The notes: generated from the sequence alone by a model not told the origin. Counted from the stretch's first letter, positions 15,264 through 53,044 are shown. The stretch: DNA of 64,000 nucleotides from Prorocentrum cordatum (GCA_963575745.1 CAUYUJ010000236.1:1-64000); one strand, 5' to 3'. Translations and numbers: made by a program.

Positions 15264-16500
<1,237 letters not shown>

Positions 16501-31350: not shown

Positions 31351-31351
31351 C

Positions 31352-32555
31352 TCAATAGGGTGCATGCGCGACTGCGAGTCGCTGTCGACCTTGATTGAAC
31401 AGAGGCATCTGAACCACACGACCAGCAGCAACCCTACGGCCTTCCAAGTCATTGGGTATGTGCTCAGCGAGGTCCGCGGGGTACAACGCCTCGAGAGACG
31501 CCCTGAGCTCCTCCTCCTCGGCATCGGCAATGATGTCGGCCAGCGGCTTGGGCGACTCAGCGGGCGGAAGGTCCTCCACGCCGAGCTCTCCTGCAACGCC
31601 GCCCCCGTCAGCGGCAGCGCCCGAGCCTGCGTCAGCAGCCATCTCTTGCGCGGGGGGCGCTCGACCGCGCCGACAGCCCGCTCCTCTTCCAGGGAGACCT
31701 TCCCCACCAATATCTGGCCCATGCTGGCCGACAAAGCCTGCGCCAGGCCACCGGCTTGCTCGGCTGCAAGCCCCAGCGCCTCGAGCATCTTGCCCAAGGC
31801 GCCCACGTCGACACGCATGCCCTTGCCCTTCTCCTGCAACGCGGCCTCCTCTGGAGCAAGCGGGGCCCGCTTCGTGAGTTCCTGCACCTGCGCACTGAGG
31901 GCAACCACTTCCTTCTCCTGCTCCTCGAGGTCCTGCTGGGTCAGCACCAGGCTCTCTTGGACGTCCTTATGCTGCTGCTGTCTTGCCGCCACGAATTCGC
32001 GAGAAGCATCGGCCCTTTTCTCCGCCGACATGAGCCGACTCGACATCGTCTGCAGCTTGGCACACATGGGACGCGACTCATGCAACTTGGCATGCAGCCG
32101 CTCCTTCTCCTCCCGCAAAGTTCCCACATGCGCACTCGCCTTCGAATCCCAGCTGTACTTGGACACGAACGCCAGCTGCTCCTCAATCTCCTCGAGCCTT
32201 TTGCGCATGTCCGCCCCGTCGTCCTTTCCGTCATCGACCAGCATGGCGCCCCCAGTCTGTGGAGCGCTCCTTCCGACCCCTGCCTGCAACACTCGGATCC
32301 GCGCTTCCAGCTCCCGAATCTTGCTTTGCCCAGCGGCGTCAGCCTGCTGAGCCTGGATCCCCCAAGGGGCCTCAGGTGGCTTGGCACGGAATGAAGGCTC
32401 CAGCGGCTGAACATTCCCGCCGAACGTGACTCCTTTCGCCAGGCCGCACAGCACGCACTTCTTCGCGTGCGCCATGTTCCACCACTGCTTGCCCGTACGT
32501 TCGTTTGTGCAACTCTTGCAGAACCACTTGCTCGCATTCTGCTCCCGAGGCCCCA
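31352..32555 (-). pseudogene. LINE-A1 ORF1 (gag-like), RanBP2-like zinc finger plus coiled coil; one apparent frameshift near 31650
   Basis: WFCKSC...WWN...KCVLCG followed by heptad-rich E/Q/L/R stretch; continues in track ORF 31352..31642 ending ...HAPY*. Confidence 0.7.
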
Positions 32556-32717
32556 TCGATGCGTCGTCTTGAGAGAGAATCTGCTCACCTGCGGGGCCGC
32601 AGGAGGCAGCTGAACAGCTGGTGTGGACCAACTGTCAGAAAGTGAAAAGGTTGAAAGCTGCCGCGGACTAGCGGTATCCAGTCTTGCCAAGCTGGCTTAG
32701 CCCGCCAACTCATCAGT

Positions 32718-32739
32718 CTTGAGCCAAAATGGCTACGGA
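32718..32739 (-). other. Perfect 22-nt dinoflagellate spliced-leader (DinoSL) sequence
   Basis: Plus strand CTTGAGCCAAAATGGCTACGGA = reverse complement of TCCGTAGCCATTTTGGCTCAAG, matching consensus DCCGTAGCCATTTTGGCTCAAG; not followed by a GT/GC SL-RNA donor, so a retroposed relic rather than an SL RNA gene. Confidence 0.97.
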
Positions 32740-34089: not shown

Positions 34090-34460
34090 TTGACACCCCT
34101 CACGCAGATCGGCGGGGTCAGGGTTCAAAAAACACAAGGGATTTGCCGCATTTCTGACATTCGGTGGCACCCCTCACGCAGATCGGCGCGGTCAGGGTCC
34201 AAAAACACATGGGATTTGCCACATTCCTGAAATCGAGTGGCACCCCTCACGCAGATCGGAGGGGTCAGGGTCCATAAACACAAGTGATGTGCCACATTTC
34301 TGAAATTATCGGCGGGGTCATGGTCCAGAACATACAAAGGATTTGCAACATTTCTGACATTCGGTGGCTGCCCTAACGCAGATCGGCGGGGTCAGGGTCC
34401 AAAAACATGCTACATTTCTGACATTCGGTGGCACCCCTCACTCAGATCGGCGGGGTCAGG
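34090..34460 (+). repeat. 73-bp satellite, array 1
   Basis: Unit ...ATTTCTGACATTCGGTGGCACCCCTCACGCAGATCGGCGGGGTCAGGGTCCAAAAACAC... Confidence 0.9.
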
Positions 34461-35058
34461 GCGCAAAAAAAATTCACTGCGTGGAGTTCCCCATATGTGC
34501 ATCTATTCGCATGGACCTGTCCGCCGTGAATGCCTAGGCGCACGAGGTTTCGAATATAAACGGGCTTCAGTTGTGACGGTCTGGTCATGAATCTAATTGC
34601 GAACGACTTGGAGTGTGAATAAGCCTCAGTAGTACGAGCGCGTCTCTGCGCATGAGCTTGGGGCCTCCTGGGGCCTCCTAGTACCCACTGGGGTTTCCTG
34701 GGGCCTCCAGGAGCCTCTGGGGGCCTCCTGAAACATCCTAGGGAGGATTCGTGCCCCAGGGGAGGCCCAACATATAGCCACAGACGTACATACAACATTG
34801 CGGATTGGAGCCACAGGAGAAGGGCAATATACAGGAACACACGTAAAACACCCAGGACTCGTGCCACAGGAGAGGCCCAATATATAGGAACACAAATAAA
34901 ACAGTTAGGATTGTGTACACACGAGAAGGACAATACATATATATATATAGATATATATATATACATACACATACATACATATAACATCAAGGATTCGTGC
35001 TCCAAGTGAGGCCGAATCTATACGAGCATACGTAAAACACATGGGATTGGAACCACTC

Positions 35059-35719: not shown

Positions 35720-36290
35720 GGGGGTGAACATGAGCGCCTCGCTTGAGACATCCTCCAAATCTGCTCCGAAAGCGAAGGAAGTTGGGACAGAAAACAAGCA
35801 AACCGCTTGAGACATCCCCACACCACGGCCGCGAACGGGACCGTGCAACACCCCTCGGCGGCACCCCTTAGGGACGTGAAAATGAGCGCCTCGCTCGAGA
35901 CATCCTCCAAATCTGCTCGGACAGCGAAGGATATTGGGACAGAAAACAAGCAAACCGCTTGGGACATCCAGCAAAACGGCCGCGAACGGGACCGTGCAAC
36001 ACCCCTCGGCGGCTCCCCTCAAGGACGTGAACATGAGCGCCTCGCTCGAGACATCCTCCGAATCGCCTCCGAAAACGTAGGATGCTGTGACAGAAAACAA
36101 GCAAACCGCTTGAGACATGCCCACACAACGGCCGCGAACGGGACCGTGCAACACCCCTCGGCGGCACCCCTTAGGGACGTGAAAATGAGCGCCTCGCTGG
36201 AGACATCCTCCAAATCTGCTCGGACAGCGAAGGATATTGGGACAGAAAACAGGCAAACCGCTTGAGACATCCCCACATGACGTCCGCGAA
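35720..36290 (+). repeat. ~152-bp tandem repeat, about 3.7 units
   Basis: GACAGAAAACAAGCAAACCGCTTG recurs at ~35785, 35938, 36089, 36241. Confidence 0.92.
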
Positions 36291-36304
36291 CGGGGCGTGC
36301 GTGA

Positions 36305-36690
36305 CTCTCAGCATGAGTAAGTCTGAGTAGGAGGAGGTCTGAGTATGAGTAGGTCTGAGTTCGTGTAAATTTGTGTGTGAGTAAGCCTGGATATGAGTAA
36401 GTCTGAGTGTGAGTCAGTCTGTGTATGAGTAAATCTGAGTATGAATAGGAGGGGGGAGGAGAAGGAGAAGAAGGAGGAGAAGTCGGCGGCGTCCAAGGAA
36501 TAAGAAGAAACCCATCTTAGGATATGGGGGACAAGTCTGAGTATTAGTTAGTCTGGGCATGAGTGAGTCTCAGCATGAGTAACTCTGAGTAGGAGTAGGT
36601 CTGAGTAGGAGTAGGTCTGAGTATGAGTAAGTTTGTGTCTGAGTAACTTTGGGTATGAGTACATCTGAGTGTGAGTAAGTCTGGGTATGA
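36305..36690. repeat. Short-period TGAGT-rich repeat (GTCTGAGTATGAGTAA)
   Basis: Direct reading of sequence. Confidence 0.85.
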
Positions 36691-36769
36691 GGAGGAGAAG
36701 GAGAAGAGGGAGAAGAAGTAGGAGGCGTCCAAGTAATAACAAGAATTCCATCTTAGGATATAGGGAACA

Positions 36770-37230
36770 CATGGGATTTGGCACATTTCTGACATTCGCT
36801 GGCACCCCTCACGTAGATCGGCGGGGTCCGGGTGCAAAAACACATGTGATTTGCATCATTTCTGACATCCGGTGGCGCCCTTCACGCAGATCGGAGGGGT
36901 CAGGGTCCAAAACACACAGAGGACTTGCCATCTTTTGACATTTGGTGGCACCCCTCACGCAGATCAGAGGGGTCAGGGTCCAAAAACACACGGGATTTGC
37001 CATATTTCTGACATTCGGTGGCACCCCTCACGCAGATCAACGGGGTCCGGGTGCAAAAACAAATAGGATTTGCAACATTTCTGAAATTCGGTGGCACCCC
37101 TCACGCAGATCGGCGGGGTCCGGGTGCAAAAACACATGTGATTTGCCACATTTCTGAAATCTGGTGGCACCCCTCACGCAGATCGGCAGGGTGGTCAAAA
37201 AACACAAGGGATTTGCCACATTTCTGAAAA
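36770..37230 (+). repeat. 73-bp satellite, array 2 (about 6 units)
   Basis: Same unit and orientation as 34090-34460. Confidence 0.92.
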
Positions 37231-38559: not shown

Positions 38560-38770
38560 AGACGACATGCTCTCAGAACAGAATAATGGCCGAAAAACAA
38601 GAACACGTTCTTAGAACGTCAACAACCGATGCCGATGCGAGAAACGAACGCGGTACAAGCCAGACCTGCGGGCAAGCCAGGGCGCCCGGCCACTGCGCGA
38701 AGAACAGGGTGAGGCCCGCAGCGCGAGGCCGAAGCGAAAACGGCCCACGGCGTCGCCAAGACGCCGCTCA
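38560..38770 (+). repeat. Dispersed repeat, copy 1 (copy 2 at ~52580-52780)
   Basis: Shared CAGAACAGAATA.TGGCC.AAAAACAAGAACA.GTTCTTAGAAC...GGTACAAGCCAGAC.TG.GGGCAAGCCAGGGCG. Confidence 0.85.
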
Positions 38771-39649
38771 GGCCGGGCCCTGCCTGGGGCCCCGCGCACG
38801 AATGCGCGGCTGCCAGTCTGCGCGGGCGGCCTGCGCAGACCCCGCAGCGCGGCGCGCCGCGCGGAGAAAAAGGGGCGCACGCGCAAAACCACTGCGGCGA
38901 GGGCATTGGACAAGGAACCCTTGGATAAGGACTCCAAAAGGGCGCCGCCAGCGCGGCGCGCTACATCGGAAATGAGAGTGCTCGCGGCTTGCGTGCCAAC
39001 GTCGGTAACGACGATCCCGTTATCTTCCCTCGCTCAAAGTCGGGAACCGAGGAACAGAACACGGCGTACGCATTATGCTTTTGGAACCGCAGGGAGGAGG
39101 GCCCAGCGCCGATCCAAGAAATCCGCGCGGAGCTCCGAACGGTGATGCCCACGCGGTGCTCTATCTCTCGATGGAGGCCCGTGGGGCCCCAGTCGCCGGA
39201 TGGCCATGGACGCCGCCGCCGCCCTCATCAGATCAGGAACCCTCCAGGGGCTGGGACCTCCTGGGCAAGTTCCTCAAACAATGCCCCCACTGTTCCCCAC
39301 AGGTCCAACGCACCAGCGGGGCAATCGCGCAACAGACCCGGCGGGGTCGAGAAGCGCGCGAGGATTGCGCCGAATTGCGCCCGGCGTCTGGGGGAGGAAG
39401 AAGAGAGGAGGAATAATGGAGAGGAAAGAGAAGCGCGGTGGTACATTTTGTTGGGGGGAGGGGCATGGGGTGCAATTTCTTGCTCTTACCCCTCCTCCTC
39501 CTCCTCCTCCTCCTCCTCCTCCTCCTCCTCCTCCTCCGCGTCCCCCTCCTCCTCCTCCTCCTCCTCCTCCTCCTCCTCCTCGTCCTCGTCCTCCTCCTCC
39601 TCCTCCTCCTCCTCCTCCTCCTCCTCCTCCTCCTCCTCCTCCCTCCTCC

Positions 39650-39749
39650 NNNNNNNNNNNNNNNNNNNNNNNNNNNNNNNNNNNNNNNNNNNNNNNNNNN
39701 NNNNNNNNNNNNNNNNNNNNNNNNNNNNNNNNNNNNNNNNNNNNNNNNN
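39650..39749. other. Assembly gap (100 N) inside a (CCT)n tract
   Basis: N run. Confidence 1.
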
Positions 39750-39878
39750 CCTCCTCCTCCTTCCTCCTCCTCCTCCCCCAGATTCCTCTTCCTCCTCCTC
39801 CTCCTTTTATTATTATTCGTCGTCGTCTTCTTCTGCTTCCTCCTCCTCTTCCTCCTCCTCCTCCTCCTCCTCCTCCTC

Positions 39879-42410
39879 AAACGGCATAGTGGTGATGTCT
39901 GCATGTTTAGTGGTCGACGCTGGCGTTAAGGGGGGGGAACATCTGTATCCTCGATGCCGTGGCGAAGTACCTGCACCAGCTCAACACCTTGAATGGGCAT
40001 TGGATCATCGGATGGGGGCTGGCACACCGATTGCGAAGACCTGGACGCGTGGTTCCATGCCGTCAATGGGACCAGGATCGCCGCCGACCTGCCGACGTGC
40101 ATCCAGGCCATGCCAGGTACCAGCAGGGATTTCTTCTACGTGTCGGAGAGCATGGTGCCGATGCTCTTGGAGGTCGACGACCATGCGAGTACCGACCTGT
40201 TCCCGCACCGTCCTGTCGAACTGGGAAGTGCCACCCAGCCTAGGAGCATGTGCTGCAGAGTTCCAGTCGAGCCTCGTGCACTTCCTGACACGCCCAAGAT
40301 CGGGCGTGGGCGCTTCCCTCCAGTTGCGGAATGGCACATGATCAACAACATGTGTGTGAACGCCCAGTCCCCTGATGACCTCGCGGTGTGCTGGGACCCT
40401 GTTCTCACAAGCCTTGAAGCCGAAGTTATGGATCGCCATGATACTTTGGAGAGTTCGGCGCGAAAGGTTGATCTTGGAAGGGCTGGTTCACCTCAGTACG
40501 CTTGGAAGGAAGCCAAGGCGGCGAAGCCAAACAAACCGTCTGAACTCAAAGCCTGGAAGACCTTGGCGAGATGGCTTCGGTACCTGAGATCGGCTCGAGT
40601 CAAGTTGCTGTCGCAAGTGGCCAGCCTCCACGACGGCGGTTTCGAGCTCAACCTCATGTCCATGTCCGAGCAGATGCATGTCCTGCACGGCTTCGCGCGC
40701 AGAGTGGCCAAGACCCAGTGGGTGCTCGAGCGCGTGACGCCTGAGGCCAAGGCTTTCATGTCTGACGTGCCGTGTAGCATCGTCGACCCCAACTTCGACC
40801 AAGTTGTACAATCCTTGATCGACTTCGCTGGGGCAAAGATTCAGGAGTGGCTAACAGTCTCAAGTGACGAGTGGTCGGACTGGGCGGAGAAGTCTTCCAA
40901 GTGCGGGGCAGGAGCTGCCCATAGGTTATCCAGGCTAAAGGAGATACAGGAACTCGCAGCTGCTGACACCAGGCCTCAGCCTTTCCAGCGCGCAGATGAT
41001 TGCATTGGTGAATGGGGCAAGATCTGGAGCATGCACGAGTGCACCGCAGCCCCGCTGCCCCAAGGTGCTGACACGTGGGACAACTTACCGATAATTACTG
41101 CCGCCGGCATGTGTCTTGCTGCTGCGTCGTTCCCGACGCGCGCGGCGTTGGGACATCTGGCGTTCAGCCCGAAGGCGCTGTGCCAGGTGCCCGACAAAGG
41201 CCTGGAGGTCCTCGCGTCTCTCTTCATGGCATGTGAGAGGTTGAGATCATGGCCTACAGAGCGCATTCACGCACGCTTGATTCGGCTAGGCAAGCCAACA
41301 GGCGGACACCGCCTCACTGCTCTGCTCAATTCGCTGCTGCGTTTGCGGGGCAAGATTAGGAAGCCAGTCTCGCAAGAGTTGGAACGTCCCCACCGACACC
41401 CATCGTTCTGGGGCCACGGTCCCAGAGCCAGCTCTACGGACGCGGCATTCGATCATAATGTGGAGGCGGAGGTGGCTACGGCGGCGGGGGAGTACTCTGT
41501 GAGCGTGTTTCTTAATGTATAAATGCTATGAATGCATTATAGTCCCTCGGCTTTTAACCGAGGCGTGCGAGCTAGCGTATCCCTTGAGAATGATGTGGAT
41601 GTTCCTCTCCCTGTATCGGTGTCCTCGTCTCGTGCAGGCGTTCGGGTCTGTGTCGCGTTGTGTGGTTACGCGTCAAGGGATACTAGCTGGCTGCAGCCAC
41701 GCAAACACGATGATGCATCTGCTCCTTCACCGCGTGAGCTGCAAGATGCGCAGAATCTATTTCACTATGCAGCCGCGAATCCTCATGGATGACTCTAGCT
41801 TCCAGTGGGCTGGCAGGCGGCTGTGCGAGTGCAATGTGCTGCTGGCCGCGGTGCGGTGGCATTGCCATCAAGTTTTCATTCGGCCTGATCCTGCAGGTTC
41901 TCAAGAGTGGGTTTGTAGCTACCGCAGCTAAAGCGTCGTCCAGAGTGTCGTCGTCGGCGCGGAGCTACACCCACATGCGCAATCTGGGCCATGAAGTCTT
42001 CTCTGGAAGACCTCAAAGGGCCCAGGAGAGTGCTCGGCTCAGGAAAGTATTTCGCCGCCGTCCCAAGCTTGCTGCGCTGCGTCGCGGAGCTCCAGGGAAG
42101 GCACAGATGCTCTGGAGGACTGGCTTGATGCCAGCAGCAGGCCACGGCGCAGGAGTCAGCGGATTCACAGACCCTTCCTTGAAGGCGCTGCGCACTTTGG
42201 CTGGCTCTCTAGTAGGTGCCAGACGCCCTGGGTCTCTCACAGCTTGGCTGGCCACGCAGGTAGATCCGTTCTATGACCCCAATTTTGATGCGACGGACAG
42301 CGATACGCCGGCATGATATGGGACGCCAGATTTTCGTTCGGGCGTCTGCAGAGAGCGTGGATGCAGATACGTGACCAGATTTTCAACAGGCCCACCTGGA
42401 ATTCGTGTCG
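39879..42410 (+). mobile_element. LINE-A2 5' part: 5'-truncated relative of LINE-A1 (APE C-half, RT)
   Basis: GIVVMSAC, WIIG, DFFYVS, PHRPV, GAGAAHRLSRL, GKPTGGHRL, NVYKCYE, QGILAGC, LMDDS, MRNLGH, WRTGLMPAAGHGAGVSG, all collinear with LINE-A1 motifs. Confidence 0.87.
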
Positions 42411-42929
42411 GATGTTTGATAAAACTGATGGATCTCCCCGTTTCCAGAACTGGCGCGGGCTTCCACTTCCGGTTCCCTTGCTCCTGCCCTTGCCTCCTTG
42501 CTTGCCCTCTCCCGCTTCTTCCCTACTCTCCGCCGCCTGGCGGCTCAAGCCTTTTCAAAGGCCAAGCTGGGGGTCGGCCTCAGTTGGCCTAAGGCCGGGC
42601 CCCGGGACCGGGGCCAGAAGACTTTCGGGATCCGGGACCGGGCCCGAAAGGGGGAGCGCCCGCGGCCGCAAGGCGCCGCGCCTGGCGCCGCGCGGCTGGG
42701 GGGAGGGCCCGGGCACCGAGCGGCGCCGGCTCACGCCAGCCGCGGAGCACTCGATGGCGAGGAGGCGGCTGCCGTGGCGTGGCCGCCGCCGGCCACCGCC
42801 GAGCGGGCGGCCAGGCGCGTGCCAGCGCCGGCGCCAGCTCGACGCCAGGCGAGGGCGGCAGAGCGCGCGTGCGCGCCAGGGCCCGCCTGGAGGAGCTGCC
42901 CCGGGGCCCTGGCGCCGCCGCCCTCAGGC

Positions 42930-45460
42930 GGACGTCGCGGCCGCGCCGCAGCCCTGCTCATGATCCTCGTGATGGCGATGGAGACCGCAGACGCCGGGCC
43001 CAGGCTCTGGCGGACGGCTCCAGACTACGAGGCCGAGTACACGTACCCGTCGTACTACTACGACGACGCGCTGGACGTGGACATGAAGCCAGTTTGGCTC
43101 GACGGCACCGTGGTCCCCTTCCTGCGCAGGGACACGCTGCCGATCGGGGCGTGCCCCGAGGGCGAGCACGACGCTCCCGCGGGAGGTGCCGGGAGGGGTC
43201 CGCCGCGCGAGCGCTCCGCGCCGCCGGCCGATCCCCCTCCCCGGGACCCGACCCATGCCCCCCCCCCAACTCCTCCGACTCGAACTCTTCGTCCTGGATC
43301 GGGGGTTGGGGTCTTTTCGGCGTCAGTTGGAAAGACATCGGCGACCGCGCGCATTGGTTCGCCGAGGGGATGGGCGGGGGCACCTTCAGGGTTTTCGGCA
43401 GCTTCAGGTCCGCCTTTTCGACCCGTGAGGCAGGAGGCTGGCTGGGCTCGGACGGCGGCTGGGTGCTCTACATGGCCGACCAGATGGGCCTCTACCTGTT
43501 CGGCTCCGCGTGGCCGCTGGTCGCCGGGCTCGTGGCGATCCTCGCCAGCACCGGCGTGGTCGCACTCTTGGCCCACAGCCTGAGAACGCTCTTCGCTCCC
43601 TGCAGCTGGGCGGCATGGGCGGGCGGCCTGGTGTTGGCATGCTGCCCTTGCCCGCGACGCAAGGCGCCTGGCGAGGCCAAGCTTGACAAGCTGGTCCCGC
43701 CGGCGGCCCCGCCCCTCACCGACGTGGCATGGCATGGTCCAGCCGTGGGTGCAGATCCGACCACAGATTGGTGCCGCAAGAGCGTCAAGGAGGGCAGGGG
43801 CTCCAAGCGTGGCCAGAACGACCTCCTGATCAGGGTCGACTATCGGGTCGCGCGGCTCAATCTCAACATGAAGTCCCCGGAGCGCATCAACCGCCAAAGC
43901 CTGTGGGTCGAGTACGACTCCGTGAAGGGCGCGAGCGACAAGGGCTTCCGACGCGAGCTCGAGCAGCGCGACCCGCGCTGGCTCCACCTGTGCCGCTCAG
44001 CCAGCTGCACTGGGTGACGAGCTGCATTGTAAGGAGTACGCAGCCATCGACAACGAAGCCATCGTCGACCTCGGAGACTACTCGAAGTTCTCGCCGTGCC
44101 GGATCTTTGTCTGGCTCTGGCGGTGGCTGGGCCTGACCTACAAGCTGCTGCTGTACGTCATCTCGTGGATTTCGTGCTGCGGGGCGTGCCTCTGCCGCTG
44201 GCGACGCCGCCGTGCGACGCGGAGCCTGGTGTGCAGGGGTCCGTGGCGAGGCTGCTTGACCAGGAGTCCGAGTCCGAGGTGGACGTTGAGGATAACCCCT
44301 GCGAGGCGGTGAAAGTGGGGCTCATGATCCAAGGCAAGATGCGCCCACTAGCGCCTGAAGGCTGTCGCGACGCCGCGCGCGGTGAGCCGACCGTGCTGTT
44401 GGTGGAGGACGGCCGAGCTTCGGACCTCAAGCCTCCGAGTGAAGGGAATGCAACGGCCTGCCTATGCGAACATCACAAGCAGATCTACAAGGTCTTACGC
44501 TATAGCGAGAAGTGCTCCCAGGTGACGTGCTTCCGCGAGGCGGTGGGCATGGCCTCAGGGGTTCCACTCTGCCTGCAGCACCTCGGTGGCGACGCCGCCA
44601 AGGCGATCAACGACGCCCCCACAGGTGGCGGGTTCTTCGCGGGGTTGCGGCGTCGAACCCGGAGGAGCCCAGCTCCGCGGAGCCGCGCGCCGGAGCGTGC
44701 CATTGCCGCTCCAGCCCGGAGCCGCGCCCCAGAGCGCTCCACCCCGGCTGTCTCTGCCACGGAGGCGCCCACCAGCCCAGGCGATCCTGTTCCCGCACCT
44801 GCGGGGCCACCGAGCGTGCGGTTCGAGGCGCCGCCGGTCCCGGAGTTCCCCAAGCCGCCTACGCCGCCGCCCATGCCGCTCGGGCAGCATTTCGTCGTTC
44901 GGGCGAGGGTGCAGTGGCCGGAAGGGGCGCAGTGGATGATCTTCCGGGGAAAGGCAGCCAACGCCACCGCAGCCAGCGCGGTCGCCGAGTACCTTGACGG
45001 CGCGATGGCCCTCGAGGTGGAGGATCCGACAGGCACCATCATCCGCTTCCTGGTGAAGCCTGACGGCGTCATCCGTGCGCCTGCCCCGGGGCCCTCAGGG
45101 CGCCTGCCCGCAGGGTTCATCGAGGAGATGCTCCACCACGCGCCCCCGGGCTGTGAGGAGCTCGGCATCAGCGTCTCGGCGACTAACGTACCTGAGAAGG
45201 TCTGGCACAAGTTGGCTGCGTGGCACGGGCTCCCCGTGGGCGGCCGCGCTGGGCCGCTCAGCGAGGCCCGCTGGCAGCTGCTCCGCGAGTGGGCGGCCAG
45301 CTTAGTCCGGTGGCACCCTGAGGGGGGCGTGGCACCCAGCCCGAGCTTCGAGGCGAGAGCCGCTGGGGCCGACGCCAAGTTGCGCCGCCACTGGCAACGG
45401 CTAGACCGCAGCAGCTCGCCCAAGCCGCTCCCCGTCAGCCGAGGGCGGGCGCGCAGCTAG
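42930..45460 (+). pseudogene. Polyprotein N-part: signal-like peptide, hydrophobic membrane segments, Cys/His-rich domain
   Basis: AAALLMILVMAMETADA; WPLVAGLVAILASTGVVALLA; WAAWAGGLVLACC; LHLCR..C...LHCKEYA; IFVWLWRWLGLTYKLLLYVISWISCC (frame absent from track, ~44105-44185); CLCEHH, CSQVTC, CLQH; frameshifts near 43265, 44010 and 44230. Confidence 0.6.
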
Positions 45461-45512
45461 CTCCGAAGCACCTGCCTCGGGGGAGAGCCAGCAGGAGGAC
45501 GACGGCGGGGAC

Positions 45513-48500
45513 ATGATGGCATGCTACCTGGAAGAGAAGGCCCGAAGGTCGGGCGACGCAGCAGCGGTGCAGAGCGTGGCCGCCGGCTTCGGCGAAGAGG
45601 CTCATCAGGTGCTCACCAACCTCATTCGTTACGCCCAGCACCTCAGGCAGCAGACAACCGAGCCCGAGGAGCTCGCACGGCTCGACGGGCACATCGGCAG
45701 CTGGGAGGAACTGCAGCAGGTACCTTCGCGGCCCCAGACCCCGGAGGCGGCGCCGAGCAGCCTGCAGGGTCTGCTCAAGCTCCCGCCCGAGCGCCACCGC
45801 TCGCAAGGGCCGCCGGCCACCCAGGCCGAGAGCGCGCCCTCGATAGAGATGAGGCCGCCCCGCCAGCCGGCAGCGCCCACACCCGCGCTCACACTCGGGC
45901 TGCGGGACGCCGGCCCCCTGTCGACCACGGCTGGGCTCGCCCCGGTCGCTCGCCCGCAAGCTCCAAACATTGGTGCTGTATTCCGCTACGACCATCACGT
46001 CAGCAACTTGGGATTACCCCCAGGTCTGACAGCAACCCCGGCACGCTACGCCGCGGGAGCCCCAGAGGAAGGCGGAGGAGGTGGCCCGTTCGGCCCCATG
46101 CAGCCCGGAGCGCCCTTGGATGCGAATACTGCGCGGATGCTGCATGCCCTGGAGGGCGTCGCCAGCGCACGCCAAGGCGACAAGGCGGCCCAGCGCGGGA
46201 CGGTGGCGGCGTTGGGAAGGGCGGAGGAGTTGGACGTCTACCTGGCGCGCGGGCGCGGCCAGCTGACGGTGGAGATCTGCGACGAGGTCCTTGGGCGCGA
46301 GCTGTTCTATGCTCTGCGCCGGACCTGCGATCAGAACAAGGCCCTGATGCTGGCGGTCGAGGCGCCCACGACGGTGTCCAACAGGATCGCGATGGCCTGC
46401 GCCTCGCTCAGCTTCGGCGGCAGCAGCCTGGACAACCTGGCCCCGTGGTCGGCCTCAGCGGCGGACTTCCCGACATGCAAGACGGTCGCGTTCGACAAGT
46501 ACAGCGCGCATGACACCAAGCTGGGGCCCAGGCCCAGGGCGCCGGTGGTCTTTGACCAGCGCAAGCGACAGGCCCAGAACATGACCAAGTTCTTCGGACT
46601 CGTCTTCGGACGGGAGCACGTCAAGGAGCGTCTGGACTGCCTGGAGACCCTCGCGCGGGAGTGCGAAAAGGACGACCGCGCCTTCCCGCCCAAGTTCGTC
46701 TATGAGCTCGGGGAGGAGCTGTGGTCCACCTGGTGTGAACGCCTCCGGGAGAAGAAGCGAAGCCTGCTGCGGGTGCTGCAGACGGACAACCCACGGAAGG
46801 AGGACCTCAAGATGGTGGCCTTCGCCCCCAAGGCAGATGGTCGTCCGGCGTTCGTCTTCCCCAATGTCTTCGACCTGGAGTCCCCCACGGGCAACTGCCA
46901 GGAGGTCGTGCGCCCTCGCCAGCAGCGCTACCTTCAGACCGTCCTCAACGACTCGATGCACGGGGCGCGCCGCGCCCCGGGCAAAGCAGGAGAGGTCGGA
47001 GGGGGGGCTGACGAACAGGGCGTTGAGCTGCAAGATCAGCGAGCAGGAGCAGCGCCCAAGAGAAAGCCCAAGGCCAAGGCTCAGCCGAAGGCCACCGCAG
47101 CGCGCGATGCCTACCCTGCGGGCAAGCGGCTGAACGCACAGGAGATCAAGCCCTCCGTCCGGCATGCACCTTGCGACAAGCAGGGCAAGCCGCTCTGCCG
47201 GGACAACTCGACCTGGATCGGCTGCAAGAAGGGCACTCAAGGGTGCTCGCATTCACGCGAGCTCATCAAGGGCCTGAAGGACGTGCACTGGACCGCGCAG
47301 TACCAGCTGCTCAGGCGGGGCGGGCTCCGCAACGCCGCCAAGATCGACCCAGCTTCGGCCAACGGGCGGATCGTGCAGCTGCGGGCCCAAGCCAAGACTG
47401 AAGCGGACAGCAAGCGGGCGGCAGGCGCGGGGGCAACGGAGAACCAGTCGACCAGGACGGGCTGGGCCCCACCCGACGAGTACGCCGAGGTTCAGTGCAC
47501 CGAGCTGGAGTCCGAGCTCCGCGAGGCTGCCCAAGGACCCGACGCCACCTGGCTGGAGGACCCGCGCGCTGACAGCCCCGCCCTGACAGGGACGGGCGTC
47601 TGCACGGACGAAGGGGCCCTGGTCCAGCAGAAGCTGCTCGCGGCCGTCCAGGAGAGCGGAGCGCTCGACCCCGTGAGCCACGCCAGTGACTACCTCAGGT
47701 CACACGTCTTGGCCCGCCTCGCCTGCGCTCGCGGGCGCGAAGAAGAGCTCTCGGTCGAGCAGGTACTCCTTGAAGCAACGCGCCACGGGGGCCCCACTTT
47801 GGCTGTTGAAGCCAGCGAGCTCCTGGACCGCATCGGGGCGAAAGCCGGCAACCTGGGGGCCGACCCAGACGTTATCATCACCCCAGTGCGGTGGAACGCT
47901 GAGAAGTCGGTGGGCCAAGGCTCCGTCACCGTGCAGGGCCAGACCTGGCATTACCTTGACTACCAGGACCAGCTGCCCCTCGACGGGTGCATCGCGAAGC
48001 GCCTGCGCGTGCCCGCCGGAGTTTCGGAAGAACGCCAATGTCTCCCGCTCCACCTGGCGGCAGCCAAGCTCTGGGTGCAGCTTGAGGCACCACCCGACGC
48101 CCAGCAGGTCAAGGACCTGGCCCTCGAGATCCGCAGGGACCTCCTGGAGAAGGCGACCGACGCTGCTGCCGGCCTCGCTGACGCTCCACCCTGGATATCT
48201 CCCAGGGAGGCCGAGGTCCGGATGCACATTCACGACGCGGTGCGCCGCGACCACGACAAGGATTTCAGGTGTGTGGCTCTCTTCCCATGCGAGGCGTTGG
48301 ACGAAGTGGTGCTCAGAGTCTGGCGGGCGGATCACTGGGGTCATCTGGATATTGACACGGCCCTTCCAGCGGGGGAACCCAAGCAGGAGTGCCACGTGAT
48401 CATCCACCGCGGGCACATGCGCGTCCTCCACCCCCCGTCCGGCGCCGAAGGCCGACGGGAGGCCGACGAGCTGATCCGCACCTGGGCCACCAGCGGGAAG

Positions 48501-48690
48501 GACCTCAAGGAGCTTCCCACCATGGGCTGGGAGACATACCTCGCTTCCGAGGAAGAGGGCAGCCCGGCGGTGTCCAGCAAGCCTCAGCCGTGCCAGCATT
48601 GCAGGGCACTTGCAGCACAGCAGCGGCAGCGTGGGAGAGCCGCCGGCGGTTCGCCCGCCGTGGTCGAGCTCCCCACCGGGCCTGCCCAGA
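45513..48690 (+). CDS. Polyprotein middle part (~1050 aa): gag-like helical region, CCCH-like finger, possible cysteine-protease-like domain
   Basis: Long open non-repetitive frame; CRDNSTWIGCKKGTQGCSHS; RQCLPLH ... HVIIHRGHM. Confidence 0.65.
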
Positions 48691-49920
48691 CCTTAAGGAC
48701 CTGGCACCGTTGCGCTCCCGACCCGCCTTCGCCTGGGGGCTCAGGACGCGGGAGATCTTCGCAGGCGCAGGGCGCTGGACGCAGGCCATGAAGAACGCTG
48801 GCATCACCACCAGCGAGTCCGTCGAGTACTACGGGCAGCCGCTGCTCAGCAAGGACCCCAGGCCGCAGTTCGACATCCGCGACCCGCTAGTGCGCGAGCG
48901 CCTGTACCAAGAGCTCAGTGCGCCTCCAGGCCCAGACGAAGCCAATGTGCTACAGTTCGCTCCTCCCTGCGTGAGTCACTGCCCCTGGCAGTTGGCAGCG
49001 GGAAGGACGAGGACCTTCGAGTGCCCAGACGGAACTGGCGAAGGTCAGGTTGAGATCGACGGCAATGTGTTCGGGGAGTTCGCGTGCACAGGGGCGAAGC
49101 GGCGCTACGAGGCAGGACGAGAATTCCTCATCGAGTCCTCGGCGCGGGACGGCAGGTACCCCAAGCTCTGGGATCGACCCTGTATGAGAGCTCTGGTGCA
49201 CGCGACTGGGGCACGGGCCCTCGCCATAGACACGTGCGAGTGGGGGCTCGCACCCCCGGACGAGCCCCAGTGCCGGAATCAGAAGCGAACCTGGTGGCTG
49301 GTATCACTCGGGCTCGACCCCTACGCTCTGATCTTGGCCAGGCGGTGCTCGGGCAAGCACGCGCACCGCACGCTGGAGGGCGGTCTGCCGTACGACCTGA
49401 CGGGTGCCCAGGTGGAAGCCTACAACCTCGACACACGCACGCGGCTCAGCAAGGCCGGGGCGAGCGAGCTGATCAACCTCAGCACCAAGTTGGGCGAGGC
49501 CAGCGGGCGCCACGGCCTCGACGAGGACGGCGTCACGGTCAGGCTGCCCCCGGACGACAAGCTGCTCCGCGTGAACCAGCTCATCGCCCGGGCCGCCCCA
49601 GACAACTTCCACTGGGCGCGGGTGGACTTCCGCACCAAGCGGCACTACCCCGCTCTGCCCGAAAACCAGTGGGCCCTCTACTTCGGAAGGACCCACGAGG
49701 GCGAGCTCCGCTTCATCATCAGCAAGCAAGCTCCGCCCAACCTGGAGGGTGGAGGGCGCGTCCCCAGCGGCCCCCCCCAGCTCAGCGCTGCAGTGAAGGG
49801 GGGGCTGGGAAGCGCCGGCTTCGGGCTGGGGCTGCGGGGCGTGCGGAGGACCCAGCACGCGGGGCAGTACGCGCCGCGGCTGTGCGCTGCCTGGGCAGCC
49901 GCGCTGAAAGCAGCGGCTGC
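48690..49920 (+). CDS. C5 cytosine DNA methyltransferase domain with internal insert
   Basis: Motif I EIFAGAG (~48752), FDI, motif IV FAPPC with catalytic Cys (~48959-48970), motif VI FLIES (~49125), motif VIII QKRT (~49280), CxxxHxH, terminal RTxxAxxYxPxLC (~49850-49885), all in one frame of ORF 48389..50956. Confidence 0.8.
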
Positions 49921-50224
49921 AGGCGCCGCTCCCGAGAAGCTGGAACAGCAGATTGCGGCGATGGACGCCGAGGCGCGGGCTTTGGAGGATAAGTTGGAAA
50001 GCAAGATGGCGCGGGCCGGGCATTTTGACGCCCTGGAACAAGACTCCCCTCCTTCATCAAGCCCGTCGGCCTGTGCGGCAGAGGGCGCCGTGACCGAGGG
50101 CGGGACCGTCGGCGAGCATGGCGAGAAGTGCGGCAGCTTGGAGCGGAGCGCCATCGCTGGTAAAGCGGAGGAGGATCAGTACGAGTGCAGCTGCAGCCAC
50201 GACGACAGCTGGCTTGAGGCCCCC

Positions 50225-51101
50225 CTCAGCACACCAAACTCACTTTTGATTTTCTGGCTAGAACGTCGGAGGCGATCGCGGGGCTGGCCCGGGAGCTCTC
50301 GGCCCCGTCTGCGCCCGCGGCTGCGCGGCCGACCCCAAGCAGGAGAAGTAAGGACCCCCTGGCTCTGTCTGAGCACACGTTGTTCCACTTTCCTGCGCTG
50401 GGCGAGTGGCGGTGTAGCGTGTGCAACCTGTATGCTAAAACGCCCGCTTCCCTGGCCCAGCTCCAGACTGGCAACAGGCGGGTCTGCGGGCCCTCCACTT
50501 TCCAGCGTTGGAAAGCGACGGCGGTCTTCGCGGATCGATCGGAGGAGCGTTTCCCCCTCTCTTCGAAGGCGGTGCCTGTGGCCCTGGAGGCTGCGGATGT
50601 GGTCCTGGGGCCCGAGTCGGAGGTTGGCCAGGCTCCGCCTTCGATGGTGCTGCAGGAGCGTTTCGGGGCCCTCGGCCATGAAATGGAGCAGGTCGGGAGA
50701 GTTCTCTTCTGCTCACGTTGCTCTGTTTTCACGATTTTGCCAAACGGGAATCTGCGGGGTCTGGGTAATAGGTGTATGGGACGCTCGGACCACCCGTCGA
50801 CCCGCAGCTCACAAGCCACCAACATTAAATATGCGGCTCGTGGGCTCCATCCGAAGTCAGGCAAGTCTCTCGACCCGATCTGACCTTTCGGGGGGGGGGC
50901 CATGTCGTGTTCGGCGGTGCTCGAGGTGTACTCGCGCTGCTGAACGAAAAATATGATTGGCCCCCCTCCGTCCATATATTATAATGCGTGAGTAGCTTTA
51001 TGCCGCACGAGAGCGTCGACCGCGATCTGCGGCGTGCTTTACTGTATTCCCTTCTCCTTTCAAGCTCTCGGTCGCGGACACGCTTCCGATCAGCGGTGGC
51101 G
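50225..51101 (+). mobile_element. LINE-A2 3' part (C-terminal Cys/His fingers and 3' UTR)
   Basis: EHTLFHF...WRCSVC and GHEMEQVGRVLFCSRC match LINE-A1 GHVMEQVGPYIFCTAC; stop at 50883; ends TGGCG then (CCT)n. Confidence 0.8.
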
Positions 51102-51516
51102 CCTCCTCCTCCTCCTCCTCCTCCTCCTCCTCCCTCCTCCTCCTCCTCCTCCTCCTCCTCCTCCTCCTCCTCCTCCTCCTTCCTCCTCCTCGTCCTCCTC
51201 CTCCTCCTCCTCCTGCCTCCTCCTCCGCCACCTCCACCTCCACCTCCTACTCCTCCTCCTCCTCCCACCTCCTCCTCCTCCTCCTCCTCCTCCTCCTCCT
51301 CCTCCTCCTCCTCCTCCTCCTCCTCCTCCTCCCCCCTCCTCCTCCTCCTCCTCCTCCTCCTCCTCGTCCTCCCTCCTTTTCCTCTCCTGTTCCTCTCCCT
51401 TGTTCCTCCTCCTCCTCCTCCTCCTCCGCCTCCTCCTCCTCATCAGCATCATCATCATCTCATCATCATCATCATCATCATCATCATCACATCATCATCA
51501 TTCATCATCATCATCA

Positions 51517-51549
<33 letters not shown>

Positions 51550-52170
51550 ATCATCATCAATCATCATCATCATCATCATCCATCAATCATCCTCATCATC
51601 CTCATCCTCCTCCTCTCCCTCCTCCTCCTCCTCCCCTTCCTCACCCCCCCCCTCCTCTCCTCCTCCTCCTCCTCCTCCTCCTCCTCCTCCCTCTCCTGCC
51701 CGCCTCCTCCTCCTGCATCCTGCTCCTGGCTCCTGCTCCTGCTTCCTGCTCCTGCTCCTTTTCCTTATCTGTTTTTCTTCTCCTGTTCCTCCTCCTCCTC
51801 CTCCTCCTCCTCTGCCTCCTCCTCCTTCCCCCCCCCCCGCCCTCCTCCTCCTCCTCCTCCTTCCTCCTCCGCCTCCTCACTCCTCGCTCCTCCTCCTCCT
51901 CCTCCTCCTCCTCCTCCTCCTACTCCTCTCTCCTCCTCCTCCTCCTCCTCCTCCTCCTCCTCCTCCTCCGCCTCCTCCTCCTCCTCCTCCTCCTCCTCCT
52001 CTCGAACATAGCATGTCCTCTCCTCATCCTCATCCTCATCCTCCATCCTCGATTCATCATCATCAATCATCAGCATATCATCATCATCATCGCATCATCA
52101 TCATCATCATCATCACATCTCATCATCATCATCAGCATGCATCATCAGCATCAGCATCAGCATCATCATC

Positions 52171-52236
<66 letters not shown>

Positions 52237-52237
52237 G

Positions 52238-52277
<40 letters not shown>

Positions 52278-52285
52278 TCATCATC

Positions 52286-52365
<80 letters not shown>
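51102..52365. repeat. (CCT)n/(CAT)n compound microsatellite
   Basis: Direct reading of sequence. Confidence 0.97.
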
Positions 52366-52366
<1 letters not shown>

Positions 52367-53044
52367 TCCTCCCCCTCCCGGGGCGAGCATGATGTCTTAT
52401 GTTCACCATTTGCGGGCCTTTGTCGGGCCCTGGGGCCGTGCAAAAACGATGAGGGACAGAAAACCAATCACGGGGCAAGGGCCCTGACCTCCGGGGCCCG
52501 GCGTTGCGAGAAAAACAAAAAAACGACGTCGGGGGTCTGGGAAATGAGCAGGGACCAACCGCCAAGGCACTCGCACAGGCAATCGACGACATGCTCCCAG
52601 AACAGAATAGTGGCCCAAAAACAAGAACATGTTCTTAGAACACAAAAAATGCGCTACGCAAACGAAAACGGTACAAGCCAGACTTGTGGGCAAGCCAGGG
52701 CGTCTGGCCACTGCGTGAGGAAAAATGGATGAGGACCGCAGCACGAGGCCGAAGCGAAGAGGATGACAACGTCGCTCGAAATGACGACAGTTATGACATT
52801 GTCTCTCAAACAGGCCCCAGAAAGGCCGCCACAAAGCAATTCGCAAACCGCACTCGGGCGTAACCGCACCGATTGCAGCCGCTGGTAATTATAAATTCTC
52901 AGAAAGAAATCCGATGGATTGCCTAAGGAATCCAATGGACTTCCAGGGGAGTCCCATTCCTCTCGCGCCCCATTTATTTGCAGGAAGACAAGCGCGCTTG
53001 CGCAGCGCGCCCCACGCCCTCCGCCTTGGACTGCCAGAACTCCG

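What the first reader, a model, noticed from the sequence alone, without database searches (positions are those of the whole stretch)
42411..50220. Large nested element encoding a membrane/zinc/gag-like polyprotein fused to a cytosine methyltransferase
Seen: about 7.3 kb of near-continuous same-strand coding sequence (around 5 apparent frameshifts, roughly 2400 aa when joined) ends in an ordered set of C5-MTase motifs with the PC catalytic dipeptide intact. Established: Symbiodiniaceae LINE and DIRS retrotransposons are known to have captured C5-MTases. Inference: this is the 5' portion of such an element, but the long cargo upstream of the MTase is unusual. No RT, RNase H or tyrosine recombinase is visible, so the class assignment is unproven.
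Basis: partly seen in the sequence, partly recalled or inferred. Interest (0 to 1): 0.72.

Follow-up and report, generated by a model that had tools for sequence, protein, structure and literature searches.

The report
Broken giant dinoflagellate DIRS-like retrotransposon
This is the dead front half of a very large dinoflagellate jumping gene whose single giant protein carries a membrane anchor, an OTU-type protease and a DNA-methylase-like domain that standard profiles miss; this copy is junk, but its family is unusual.

Summary
Window 42411-50220 is a GC-rich (about 69%) block of same-strand coding sequence. It gives 2,399 aa when joined across three frame changes and two in-frame stops.

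It is a degraded, 3'-truncated copy of a high-copy repeat. Intact relatives on metagenome contigs are 11-15.5 kb elements with the DIRS-type repeat layout A-coding-B-A-B. Each has one giant ORF (3,603 or 4,809 aa) in this order:
- signal/TM N-terminus
- Cys-rich region
- conserved central region with a CCCH-like pattern
- OTU-fold cysteine protease
- methyltransferase-like domain
- RT-like motifs and an RNase H region
- C-terminal tyrosine recombinase (PF00589, always below Pfam's cut-off)

The window keeps the true 5' end, homologous to the relative's A repeat, and stops just after the methylase-like domain.

"Gag-like" is unproven, and the OTU protease is new information.

The parts
42411..42959 (+). 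5' terminal region of the element: the counterpart of the relative's 'A' terminal repeat, plus the 5' UTR.
   Evidence: In run X1, contigs of other copies fit from 42411 on and carry unlike letters before it (loose end at 42410, 2 contigs). The upstream LINE-like RT alignment ends at 42411. Window 42543-42598 matches L001 114-168 at 87.7%, E 4e-11. A local alignment scores 119 against a shuffle maximum of 51. TGTTTGATAAAAC at 42413 resembles the start of L001's A repeat, by eye.
42960..43259 (+). Probable start of the polyprotein (ATG at 42960, frame 3). The frame changes before 43295.
   Evidence: The translation MILVMAMET...YPSYYYDDAL resembles the L001 N-terminus ...YPAGASYYDDAP, which follows a signal-peptide-like stretch. 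This rests on similarity seen by eye only; it is an inference.
43295..45424 (+). N-terminal membrane and Cys-rich region (frame 2). It is broken by stops TGA 44015 and TAA 44030. Hydrophobic TM-like segments lie at 43490-43546 and 44078-44134. Cys/His-rich patterns lie at 44264-44584.
   Evidence: tblastn of L001 ORF residues 121-831 gives 42% identity. P0157 residues 113-672 and Polarella P0066 residues 87-715 also match. Stops. Kyte-Doolittle segments, also present in P0157, P0066 and L010. Motif coordinates.
45432..47855 (+). Central conserved region of unknown fold (frame 3). It holds a CCCH-like Cys/His pattern at 47196-47252.
   Evidence: L001 ORF residues 860-946 and 1100-1971 align at 40-48%. 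P0157 residues 879-1737 align at 35%. No Pfam family was found. The protein Atlas returned only unnamed clusters, with zf-CCCH as a 0.82 lead. The CCCH reading is by eye.
47856..48491 (+). OTU-fold cysteine protease domain. The candidate catalytic Cys is at 48039-48041 and the candidate His at 48414-48416.
48728..49915 (+). C5-methyltransferase-fold domain (frame 2). Motif I is at 48752-48781, the PC motif at 48959-48982, the ENV-like Glu at 49133-49135 and the motif X-like helix at 49868-49906. A low-confidence insert of about 150 aa lies at about 49400-49850.
49916..50220 (+). Low-complexity continuation of the ORF, then the truncation point. Homology to relatives ends by 50044.
   Evidence: The L001 ORF aligns to 49981 (residue 2412 of 4809). 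No stored protein matches past 50044. Run X1 summed depth is 219 at 49808-50174 and 12 at 50175-50541, and one contig ends at 50221. Window 49950-51100 has no blastn match to the 16 metagenome loci L001-L016.
41163..42410 (+). Not part of the element. This is a degraded LINE-like RT fragment that the element's 5' end abuts.
   Evidence: It aligns to residues 9-396 of the in-window paralogue ORF 27451-29190(-), which has a weak RVT_1 hit (E 0.008). The alignment stops at 42411. The rest of that ORF is not found after 50220.

Best explanation
Window 42411-50220 is a dead, 3'-truncated copy of a giant DIRS-like (tyrosine-recombinase) retrotransposon family of dinoflagellates.

What intact members look like: 11-15.5 kb, bounded by split direct repeats (A-coding-B-A-B), with one ORF of 3,600-4,800 aa. 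The ORF encodes, in order:
- a signal/TM N-terminal module
- a Cys-rich region
- a conserved central region with a CCCH-like pattern
- an OTU-fold Cys-His protease
- a compact C5-methyltransferase-fold domain lacking a normal target-recognition domain
- RT
- RNase H
- a C-terminal tyrosine recombinase

Inferred life cycle:
1. Transcription starts from the 5' repeat.
2. The polyprotein is translated.
3. The OTU domain processes it (and/or removes ubiquitin).
4. RT and RNase H make cDNA.
5. The split repeats allow a closed intermediate.
6. The recombinase integrates it.
7. The methylase-like domain uses SAM and its conserved PC cysteine to methylate a pyrimidine C5 in the element's cDNA (or RNA), so that new copies look like the host's heavily CG-methylated DNA. 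This is the hypothesis made for SymbioDIRS-Dnmt3.

Shown here: the domain order, the folds, the motif conservation, the repeats, the multi-copy status and the decay of this copy.

Inferred: RT identity (motifs only), every enzymatic activity, the substrate of the methylase and the role of the protease.

The window copy keeps its true 5' end, which lies against a LINE-like RT fragment. It has three frame changes and two stops. It has lost everything after the methylase domain, probably by a later deletion.
For: 1. Repeat status. In run X1, 1,510 contig pieces lie on 41000-52000: 151 at >=99%, 466 at 95-99%, 707 at 90-95% and 186 at <90%. Summed depth is 87-454 across 42101-50174, except one bin of 15 at 42835-43201. 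It is 4 at 41000-41366 and 4-12 after 50175. Differences between copies are mostly transitions.

2. Same architecture in relatives.
- P0157 (3,362 aa) and Polarella glacialis P0066/P0173 align to the window over the N-terminal, central and methylase parts. They then continue for 1,200-1,400 aa.
- That continuation is shared by P0081, P0013, P0065, P0056 and others.
- Of the 16 metagenome loci, L001, L002, L005, L008, L009 and L010 show full synteny.

3. Intact giant ORFs. L001 247-14676 encodes 4,809 aa and L010 5462-16273 encodes 3,603 aa. The window's frame changes are therefore damage, not introns.

4. Repeats A-coding-B-A-B at 95-100% identity occur in L001, L005 and L010. That is 3 of 5 loci examined; none was found in L002 or L009, and the L009 locus ends just after its ORF. 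This matches the DIRS layout quoted in PMC5890265.

5. Recombinase. PF00589 hits lie C-terminal in P0081 (E 1.9e-5), the L001 ORF (2.2e-4), the L010 ORF (9e-5), P0183 (1.1e-5) and P0179 (8.7e-3).

6. RT-like motifs appear in canonical order and spacing. In P0157 they start at residues 2331, 2380, 2416 and 2456, and they are conserved in alignment A2. The protein Atlas lead was RVT_1 clusters at 0.89. A Durusdinium relative is named as an RNase H type-1 domain protein by UniRef.

7. Methylase fold and motifs.

8. OTU fold and invariant Cys and His.

9. The 5' end is homologous to L001's 5' repeat region.
Against: - No Pfam RT family hits any member. A whole-polyprotein profile finds no solved RT, RNase H or recombinase at E<=1.
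- All PF00589 hits are under Pfam's 27.1-bit cut-off.
- PF00145 does not hit: 0 of 40 members at E<=10, and none in the 5 window ORF translations. hhalign of the family core against E. coli Dcm, and against Dcm plus 3 phage C5-MTases, gives probabilities of only 0.75 and 3.4 (E 0.075 and 0.013). Motifs are in register only for the first.
- The motif VIII arginines are not conserved; the window has QKRTW. Most members have no target-recognition domain. DNA cytosine methylation is therefore unproven.
- The remainder of the interrupted LINE is not found downstream, so insertion into it is shown at one junction only.
- Summed contig depth is not a copy number, by the tool's own warning.
Confidence: 0.82

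Rival explanations
1. The 7.8-kb unit is a non-autonomous deletion derivative: 5' repeat to methylase domain only. It has itself been amplified in this genome, using RT and recombinase supplied in trans by full-length elements. On this view it is not a one-off truncated copy.
For: Summed depth in run X1 stays high (219) up to 50174 and falls to 12 in the next bin. One contig ends at 50221. Many copies could therefore share this 3' end.
Against: The same pattern arises if other copies simply continue into RT sequence that the window lacks. The short contigs cannot tell the two apart, and no loose end at about 50220 was among the rows shown. No 3' A or B repeat follows 50220, so this copy lacks the ends that DIRS replication is thought to need.
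Confidence: 0.12
2. The methylase-like domain is not a DNA cytosine methyltransferase. It may act on RNA (for example the element's own transcript), or it may be a SAM-binding or structural module with another or no catalytic role.
For: No PF00145 hit. The motif VIII arginines that hold the flipped cytosine in M.HhaI (role recalled) are not conserved. Most members go straight from the RxCxGxHxH segment to the motif X-like helix, with no target-recognition domain. PMC5890265 itself reports a SymbioLINE-Dnmt that failed to methylate DNA in yeast and suggests RNA as a substrate (passage read).
Confidence: 0.3
3. The family is a Crypton-like DNA transposon or other recombinase element without reverse transcription. 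On this view the RT motifs are a misreading.
For: No RT profile or solved RT structure is matched. The recombinase is the only mobility enzyme that any profile detects.
Against: Four RT-like motifs occur in the right order and spacing and are conserved. Atlas features are nearest to RVT_1 clusters and DIRS-type RVT_1/RT_RNaseH/Dam clusters (this is a lead only). A relative is named as an RNase H type-1 protein. The A-coding-B-A-B repeats are the DIRS/PAT layout. PMC5890265 states that Symbiodinium DIRS RTs escape Pfam.
Confidence: 0.05
4. The block is an intron-containing or decaying host gene, or a fragment of an endogenous large DNA virus, rather than a retrotransposon.
For: A signal/TM module, an OTU protease and a methylase are also a virus-like mix. 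The block's GC (0.69) differs from its surroundings.
Against: The block is multi-copy with copies 88-99% alike. Relatives are bounded by near-identical repeats and end in a recombinase. Intact relatives are single uninterrupted ORFs. A scan of viral contigs for close relatives of the methylase core found none; that scan reaches close relatives only.
Confidence: 0.03

Closest known systems
SymbioDIRS-Dnmt3 retrotransposons of Symbiodinium (de Mendoza et al. 2018, PMC5890265; passages read)
   Same: Both have a dinoflagellate host, a DIRS-type A-coding-B-A-B repeat layout (against the paper's figure legend) and an RT too divergent for Pfam. Both place a C5-methyltransferase-type domain upstream of or beside the RT in the polyprotein and have a tyrosine recombinase. 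The RT region's nearest named Atlas clusters include ones where 45-64% of members carry PF00145 (a lead only).
   Different: - Here the methylase is invisible to PF00145, the profile used to find the published elements.
- The recombinase lies in the same giant ORF (L001, L010), not in a separate ORF.
- About 2,000 aa of extra N-terminal cargo precedes the methylase: a signal/TM module, a Cys-rich region, a central region and an OTU protease.
- No direct sequence comparison with the published elements was possible.
DIRS1 / PAT-like tyrosine-recombinase retrotransposons (Goodwin and Poulter; recalled, and cited in PMC5890265)
   Same: Both have RT, RNase H and a tyrosine recombinase, split or unusual terminal repeats, and often an accessory methyltransferase domain.
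   Different: The classical accessory domain is a Dam-like N6-adenine methylase placed after RNase H (passage). Here it is a C5-MTase-fold domain placed before the RT. Classical elements are about 4-6 kb with separate gag and pol ORFs (recalled). Here one ORF reaches 4,809 aa.
Catalytic domains of M.HhaI and DNMT3A/3B (solved structures 1fjx, 8te4, 6kdt)
   Different: Identity is 10-15%. The Q-x-R-x-R arginines are not conserved. Most family members have no target-recognition domain, while the window and L001 carry a poorly predicted insert of about 150 aa instead. There are extra conserved GRYPKxWDLP and RxCxGxHxH segments.
OTU-family proteases/deubiquitinases, including viral polyprotein OTUs (nairovirus vOTU, TYMV proteinase) and the OTU domains reported in Ginger1 DNA transposons (PMC2836005; search listing only)

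Membership tests
C5 cytosine methyltransferase (DNMT / PF00145) | Match to the family sequence profile PF00145 | tested here: not met
   No Pfam family was found for the window ORFs at E<=0.1. PF00145 matched 0 of 40 family members at E<=10. It was also absent in 32, 7, 13 and 4 longer relatives. hhalign against Dcm and against a 4-sequence C5-MTase alignment gave probabilities 0.75 and 3.4.
C5 cytosine methyltransferase (DNMT / PF00145) | Class I SAM-MTase fold with the C5-MTase arrangement, in which a C-terminal motif X helix packs back on the core | tested here: met
C5 cytosine methyltransferase (DNMT / PF00145) | Motif I (FxGxG), acidic SAM-binding residues, motif IV Pro-Cys nucleophile and motif VI Glu | tested here: met
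   Over 162 family rows: G13 81/81, E9 80/81, E33 90/99, D49 106/113, P80 97/120, C81 114/120, E136 120/123. The window keeps all of them. Their assignment to motif numbers is by position in the predicted strands and from recalled motif definitions.
C5 cytosine methyltransferase (DNMT / PF00145) | Motif VIII Q-x-R-x-R arginines and a target-recognition domain between motifs VIII and IX/X | tested here: not met
   No residue at window positions 185-188 reaches 60% conservation, and the window reads QKRTW. Most members pass from RxCxGxHxH directly to the motif X-like helix. The window's insert of about 150 aa is predicted with pLDDT below 60.
C5 cytosine methyltransferase (DNMT / PF00145) | SAM-dependent transfer of a methyl group to cytosine C5 | not testable with these tools
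   This needs a biochemical or in vivo assay.
DIRS-like tyrosine-recombinase retrotransposon | Tyrosine recombinase instead of a DDE integrase | tested here: inconclusive
   It is absent from the window copy. In relatives, PF00589 lies at the C-terminal side in 5 proteins at E 1.1e-5 to 8.7e-3. All score under the 27.1-bit cut-off, at 16.3-25.7 bits.
DIRS-like tyrosine-recombinase retrotransposon | Reverse transcriptase and RNase H | tested here: inconclusive
   These are absent from the window copy. Relatives give no RVT Pfam hit and no solved-structure hit. Conserved RT-like motifs lie in order at P0157 residues 2331, 2380, 2416 and 2456. The Atlas lead was RVT_1 at 0.89. UniRef gives an RNase H type-1 name to one relative.
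DIRS-like tyrosine-recombinase retrotransposon | Split or unusual terminal repeats (A-coding-B-A-B) | tested here: met
   - L001: A 45-139 = 15540-15634 (100%); B 15327-15445 = 15701-15819 (95%).
- L010: A 98%, B 100%.
- L005: A 100%, B 100%.
- None was found in L002 or L009.
The window keeps only the 5' A-like end.
DIRS-like tyrosine-recombinase retrotransposon | Multi-copy, dispersed in the host genome | tested here: met
   In run X1, 1,510 contig pieces at 88-100% identity lie on 41000-52000. Summed depth over the block is 87-454 (one bin of 15 at 42835-43201), against 4 on the left flank. Summed depth is not a copy number. Dispersal itself was not tested.
SymbioDIRS-Dnmt3 (PMC5890265) | DNMT domain found with PF00145 that groups with Dnmt3 | tested here: not met
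   PF00145 does not hit. A phylogeny was not possible. DNMT3A/3B are among the best fold matches but tie with M.HhaI.
SymbioDIRS-Dnmt3 (PMC5890265) | Recombinase in an ORF separate from the Pol polyprotein | tested here: not met
   L001 and L010 each carry everything, including the PF00589 stretch, in one ORF.
OTU cysteine protease / deubiquitinase | OTU fold with the Cys at a helix N-terminus and the His in a beta-strand | tested here: met
OTU cysteine protease / deubiquitinase | Match to an OTU sequence profile | tested here: not met
   No Pfam family was found for P0001, which contains the domain, at E<=0.1. None was found for relatives either.

The most novel reading that the evidence does not exclude
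The family may be a distinct, undescribed lineage of giant tyrosine-recombinase retroelements in dinoflagellates. On this reading it has assembled a virus-like toolkit in one ORF of up to 4,809 aa.
- A signal-peptide/TM glycoprotein-like module could act as an envelope or membrane-targeting device.
- An OTU protease could process the polyprotein or strip host ubiquitin.
- The methylase-like domain could be a new clade of C5-methyltransferase, without a target-recognition domain and possibly zinc-bound, that profile searches miss.
If so, published counts of transposon-borne DNMTs in dinoflagellates, which were found with PF00145, underestimate them. The methylase could mark cDNA or RNA in a way not yet described.
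Probability: 0.2. Interest if true: 0.8.

Novelty: new variant of a known kind. Interest (0 to 1): 0.55.

Why it matters
Retrotransposons that carry their own cytosine methyltransferase are known from Symbiodinium. They are thought to disguise new copies as host DNA. This finding points to a second, larger set of such elements that the standard profile (PF00145) cannot see: a search of 1.84 billion representative proteins found 272 with the domain. If the domain is active, estimates of transposon-encoded methylases in dinoflagellates are too low, and the minimal requirements for a C5-methyltransferase (no target-recognition domain, no motif VIII arginines) would need revisiting. The OTU protease and the membrane module show that DIRS-like elements can grow virus-like polyproteins. 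Relatives carry DnaJ, Tpt1/KptA and NADAR domains, which suggests this lineage readily captures host domains. The window copy itself is an ordinary dead fragment.

Tried and rejected
- Whole-genome search: no genome is held for this window. Copy number and the 3' ends of other copies could only be approached through public runs.
- No RNA holder was listed among the 5 runs returned. This says nothing about expression.
- Sequence searches of the methylase ORF and of family profiles against solved structures found nothing: one spurious hit at E 1.6, 0 hits and 0 hits.
- Profile comparison with true C5-MTases (E. coli Dcm, and Dcm plus 3 phage enzymes) was weak.
- Word-based homologue searches gave one hit each for the central ORF and for the methylase region. 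The exhaustive search was needed.
- Viral contigs: one pattern match, no relative. This scan reaches close relatives only.
- The first metagenome scan with the single window protein found nothing. A scan with an 8-sequence core alignment worked.
- Resumption of the interrupted LINE after 50220: no significant match.
- A second copy of the 5' repeat, or of L001's 3' repeats, after 50220: none.
- CpG depletion as a sign of methylation decay: CpG o/e is 0.92 in the block against 0.82-0.95 elsewhere, so there is no signal.
- The Atlas search of the central region gave only unnamed clusters.
- Earlier findings of this scan: nothing by place or by sequence.
- Supplements of PMC5890265, which may hold the published element sequences, were not opened. 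A direct comparison with SymbioDIRS-Dnmt3 is therefore missing.

Full report
**What is in the window**

From about 42400 to 50400 the GC content rises to 0.64-0.75 per 400-nt bin, against 0.40-0.62 on either side. Long + strand frames follow one another: 42429-43583, 42593-44017, 44033-45460, 45405-48791 and 48356-50956. None of the five translations matches a Pfam family at E<=0.1. The last ORF finds nothing real among solved structures by sequence.

**The block is conserved coding sequence**

The central ORF found one cluster in the word-based search: P0006, 1,806 aa, E 2.6e-134, 37% identity. A longer member of the same 90% cluster, P0157 (3,362 aa), aligns to the window in three collinear pieces:
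- residues 113-672 on 43409-45229
- residues 879-1737 on 46071-48647
- residues 1711-2013 on 48575-49915

Nothing in the window matches its last 1,350 residues.

The closest intact relative is the 4,809-aa ORF of metagenome locus L001. It fixes the path as follows:
- residues 121-831 on 43295-45424 (frame 2)
- residues 860-946 and 1100-1971 on 45432-48668 (frame 3)
- residues 1975-2412 on 48689-49981 (frame 2)

An N-terminal piece is placed by eye at 42960-43259. With it, the joined length is 2,399 aa. The copy carries two in-frame stops, TGA 44015 and TAA 44030, and three frame changes. L001 and L010 have single uninterrupted ORFs of 4,809 and 3,603 aa, so these are lesions and not introns.

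**It is a repeat with defined ends**

Run X1 holds the left flank without a difference at low depth. In that run, 1,510 short contig pieces lie on 41000-52000: 151 at >=99%, 466 at 95-99%, 707 at 90-95% and 186 below 90%. Summed depth by position:
- 4 at 41000-41366
- 87-454 over 42101-50174, with one bin of 15 at 42835-43201
- 12 at 50175-50541
- 4 at 50542-50908
- 0 beyond

The tool warns that summed depth is not a copy number, so I take from it only "many diverged copies". Two metagenome runs hold further relatives (359 and 207 pieces). Differences between copies are mostly transitions.

Other copies diverge from the window just before 42411 (loose end, 2 contigs). Independently, a LINE-like RT fragment upstream (41163-42410) aligns to residues 9-396 of a paralogous ORF elsewhere in the window (27451-29190, minus strand) and stops at 42411. 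Window 42543-42598 is 87.7% identical to L001 114-168, which spans the end of that element's 5' repeat. The window therefore keeps the true 5' end.

After 50220 there is no match to any relative, and no second copy of the terminal repeats. The interrupted LINE does not resume either.

**What the family is**

An exhaustive search with the methylase-like region found 272 representative proteins at E<=1e-3, of which 28 are at <=1e-30. Many also share the domain just upstream of it. Many continue into a region of 1,200-1,400 aa shared with P0157: P0066 and P0173 of Polarella glacialis, P0081, P0013, P0065, P0056 and others.

A metagenome scan gave 16 loci. L001, L002, L005, L008, L009 and L010 show the whole order: N-terminal part, central part, methylase, RT region and recombinase.

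Three of the five long loci examined have direct repeats in the order A-coding-B-A-B at 95-100% identity (L001, L005, L010). L002 and L009 showed none. This is the layout that PMC5890265 describes for DIRS elements and for SymbioDIRS-Dnmt3 (passages read).

PF00589 (phage integrase) is found at the C-terminal side of five proteins, at E 1.1e-5 to 8.7e-3. All are below Pfam's cut-off.

No RT profile hits, and a polyprotein profile finds no solved RT. Three things still point to an RT:
- The paper states that Symbiodinium DIRS RTs escape Pfam.
- Four conserved motifs lie in RT order and spacing: R-x-I-x-D..R..N, K-x-D...AF, FG..G.PGE and L-M/V-D-D.
- The Atlas's nearest named clusters are RVT_1 and PF00145-bearing clusters at 0.88-0.89, a lead only. 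One relative bears a UniRef RNase H type-1 name.

An exact 21-nt dinoflagellate spliced-leader relic sits elsewhere in the window. Relatives come from Polarella, Symbiodinium and Durusdinium. The host is therefore a dinoflagellate.

**The methylase-like domain**

An AlphaFold2 model from a 40-sequence alignment has pLDDT above 90 for residues 1-220 and 378-430 of window:48728-50035, and below 60 for most of 222-371.
- Foldseek gave 114 hits at E<=1e-3. All listed rows are C5 DNA methyltransferases: DNMT1, DIM-2, M.HhaI, DNMT3A/B, MET1 and a prophage enzyme.

Across 162 family rows, the key residues are kept:
- motif I glycine, 81/81
- two acidic SAM-site residues, 90/99 and 106/113
- Pro-Cys, 97/120 and 114/120
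- ENV-type Glu, 120/123

Family-specific GRYPKxWDLP and RxCxGxHxH segments are also conserved. The window copy retains all the key residues.

Against membership:
- PF00145 hits 0 of 40 members at E<=10.
- hhalign to Dcm, or to four true C5-MTases, is weak (probability 0.75 and 3.4).
- The motif VIII arginines are not conserved.
- Most members lack a target-recognition domain.

I conclude that the domain works like a C5-methyltransferase and probably descends from one. It is not a member by profile, and its substrate is open.

**The rest of the cargo**

The N-terminal part has one or two strongly hydrophobic segments conserved among relatives, and L001 has a signal-peptide-like start. The region 45432-47855 is conserved but has no assignable fold. 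It contains a CCCH-like Cys/His pattern, seen by eye. The "gag-like" label remains a guess.

**Comparison and novelty**

The nearest described things are the SymbioDIRS-Dnmt3 elements. A 2026 preprint still lists only those and SymbioLINE-Dnmt as dinoflagellate transposon DNMTs (10.64898/2026.05.21.726589, passages read). This family shares the host group, the repeat layout and the idea of an element-borne C5-methylase. It differs in four ways:
- The methylase is hidden from PF00145.
- The recombinase is in the same ORF.
- There are about 2,000 aa of extra cargo.
- It has an OTU protease. One literature search (OTU, DIRS, retrotransposon, cysteine protease) returned only the Ginger transposon paper.

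I rate it a new variant of a known kind. The window copy itself is a dead fragment of no functional consequence. The interest lies in the family.

Noticed in passing
window 32718-32738 (-): An exact 21-nt dinoflagellate spliced-leader sequence lies here (0 mismatches; 0 of 100 shuffles had any match). It sits just 5' of the 1,069-aa ORF 29428-32634(-) of a LINE-like element. It looks like a spliced-leader relic carried in by retrotransposition of a trans-spliced RNA.
   Followed up: partly
window 26724-32634 (-) and 38929-42410 (+): Two paralogous LINE-like elements. ORF 27451-29190(-) has a weak RVT_1 hit (E 0.008). Residues 9-396 of it align to 41163-42411(+) in shifted frames. The + strand copy is cut by the DIRS-like block, and its remainder is not in the window.
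   Followed up: partly
window 38561-38738 and 52585-52758: A direct repeat of about 178 nt (84% identical) lies 14 kb apart. It brackets the LINE fragment, the DIRS-like block and the microsatellites. Its meaning is unknown.
   Followed up: no
window 39436-39890 and 51060-52400: Long (CTC)n and (ATC)n-type microsatellite tracts. A run of 100 N (an assembly gap) begins at about 39650.
   Followed up: no
window 50218-50883 (+): A 221-aa open frame directly after the truncation point, with two CxxC pairs (WRCSVCN..., LFCSRCS...). It has no Pfam family and no match to the element's relatives. Run X1 holds it at low depth (4-12).
   Followed up: partly
window 49550-49627, inside the methylase insert: A short stretch (PDDKLLRVNQLIARAAPDNFHWARVD) resembles a motif of the N-terminal module of P0157 (residues 240-265; 46% over 26 aa, E 0.45). 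The insert may be a duplicated piece of the N-terminal region. L001 has the same insert.
   Followed up: no
relatives P0183, P0179, P0190, P0124: Related dinoflagellate polyproteins carry other accessory domains above Pfam cut-offs:
- DnaJ after the recombinase (52.3 and 41.2 bits)
- Tpt1/KptA RNA 2'-phosphotransferase (86.6 bits)
- NADAR (53.6 bits)
This lineage seems to capture host domains often.
   Followed up: partly
protein P0024 (76 aa): A fragment 89% identical to the window's methylase core is labelled Pyramimonas sp. CCMP1952 in a transcriptome collection. This may be cross-contamination of that data set, or the family may occur outside dinoflagellates.
   Followed up: no
window 34091-34470 and 35724-37230: Arrays of tandem repeats with about 73-nt and about 150-nt units, 77-92% alike, are shared between the two places.
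   Followed up: no
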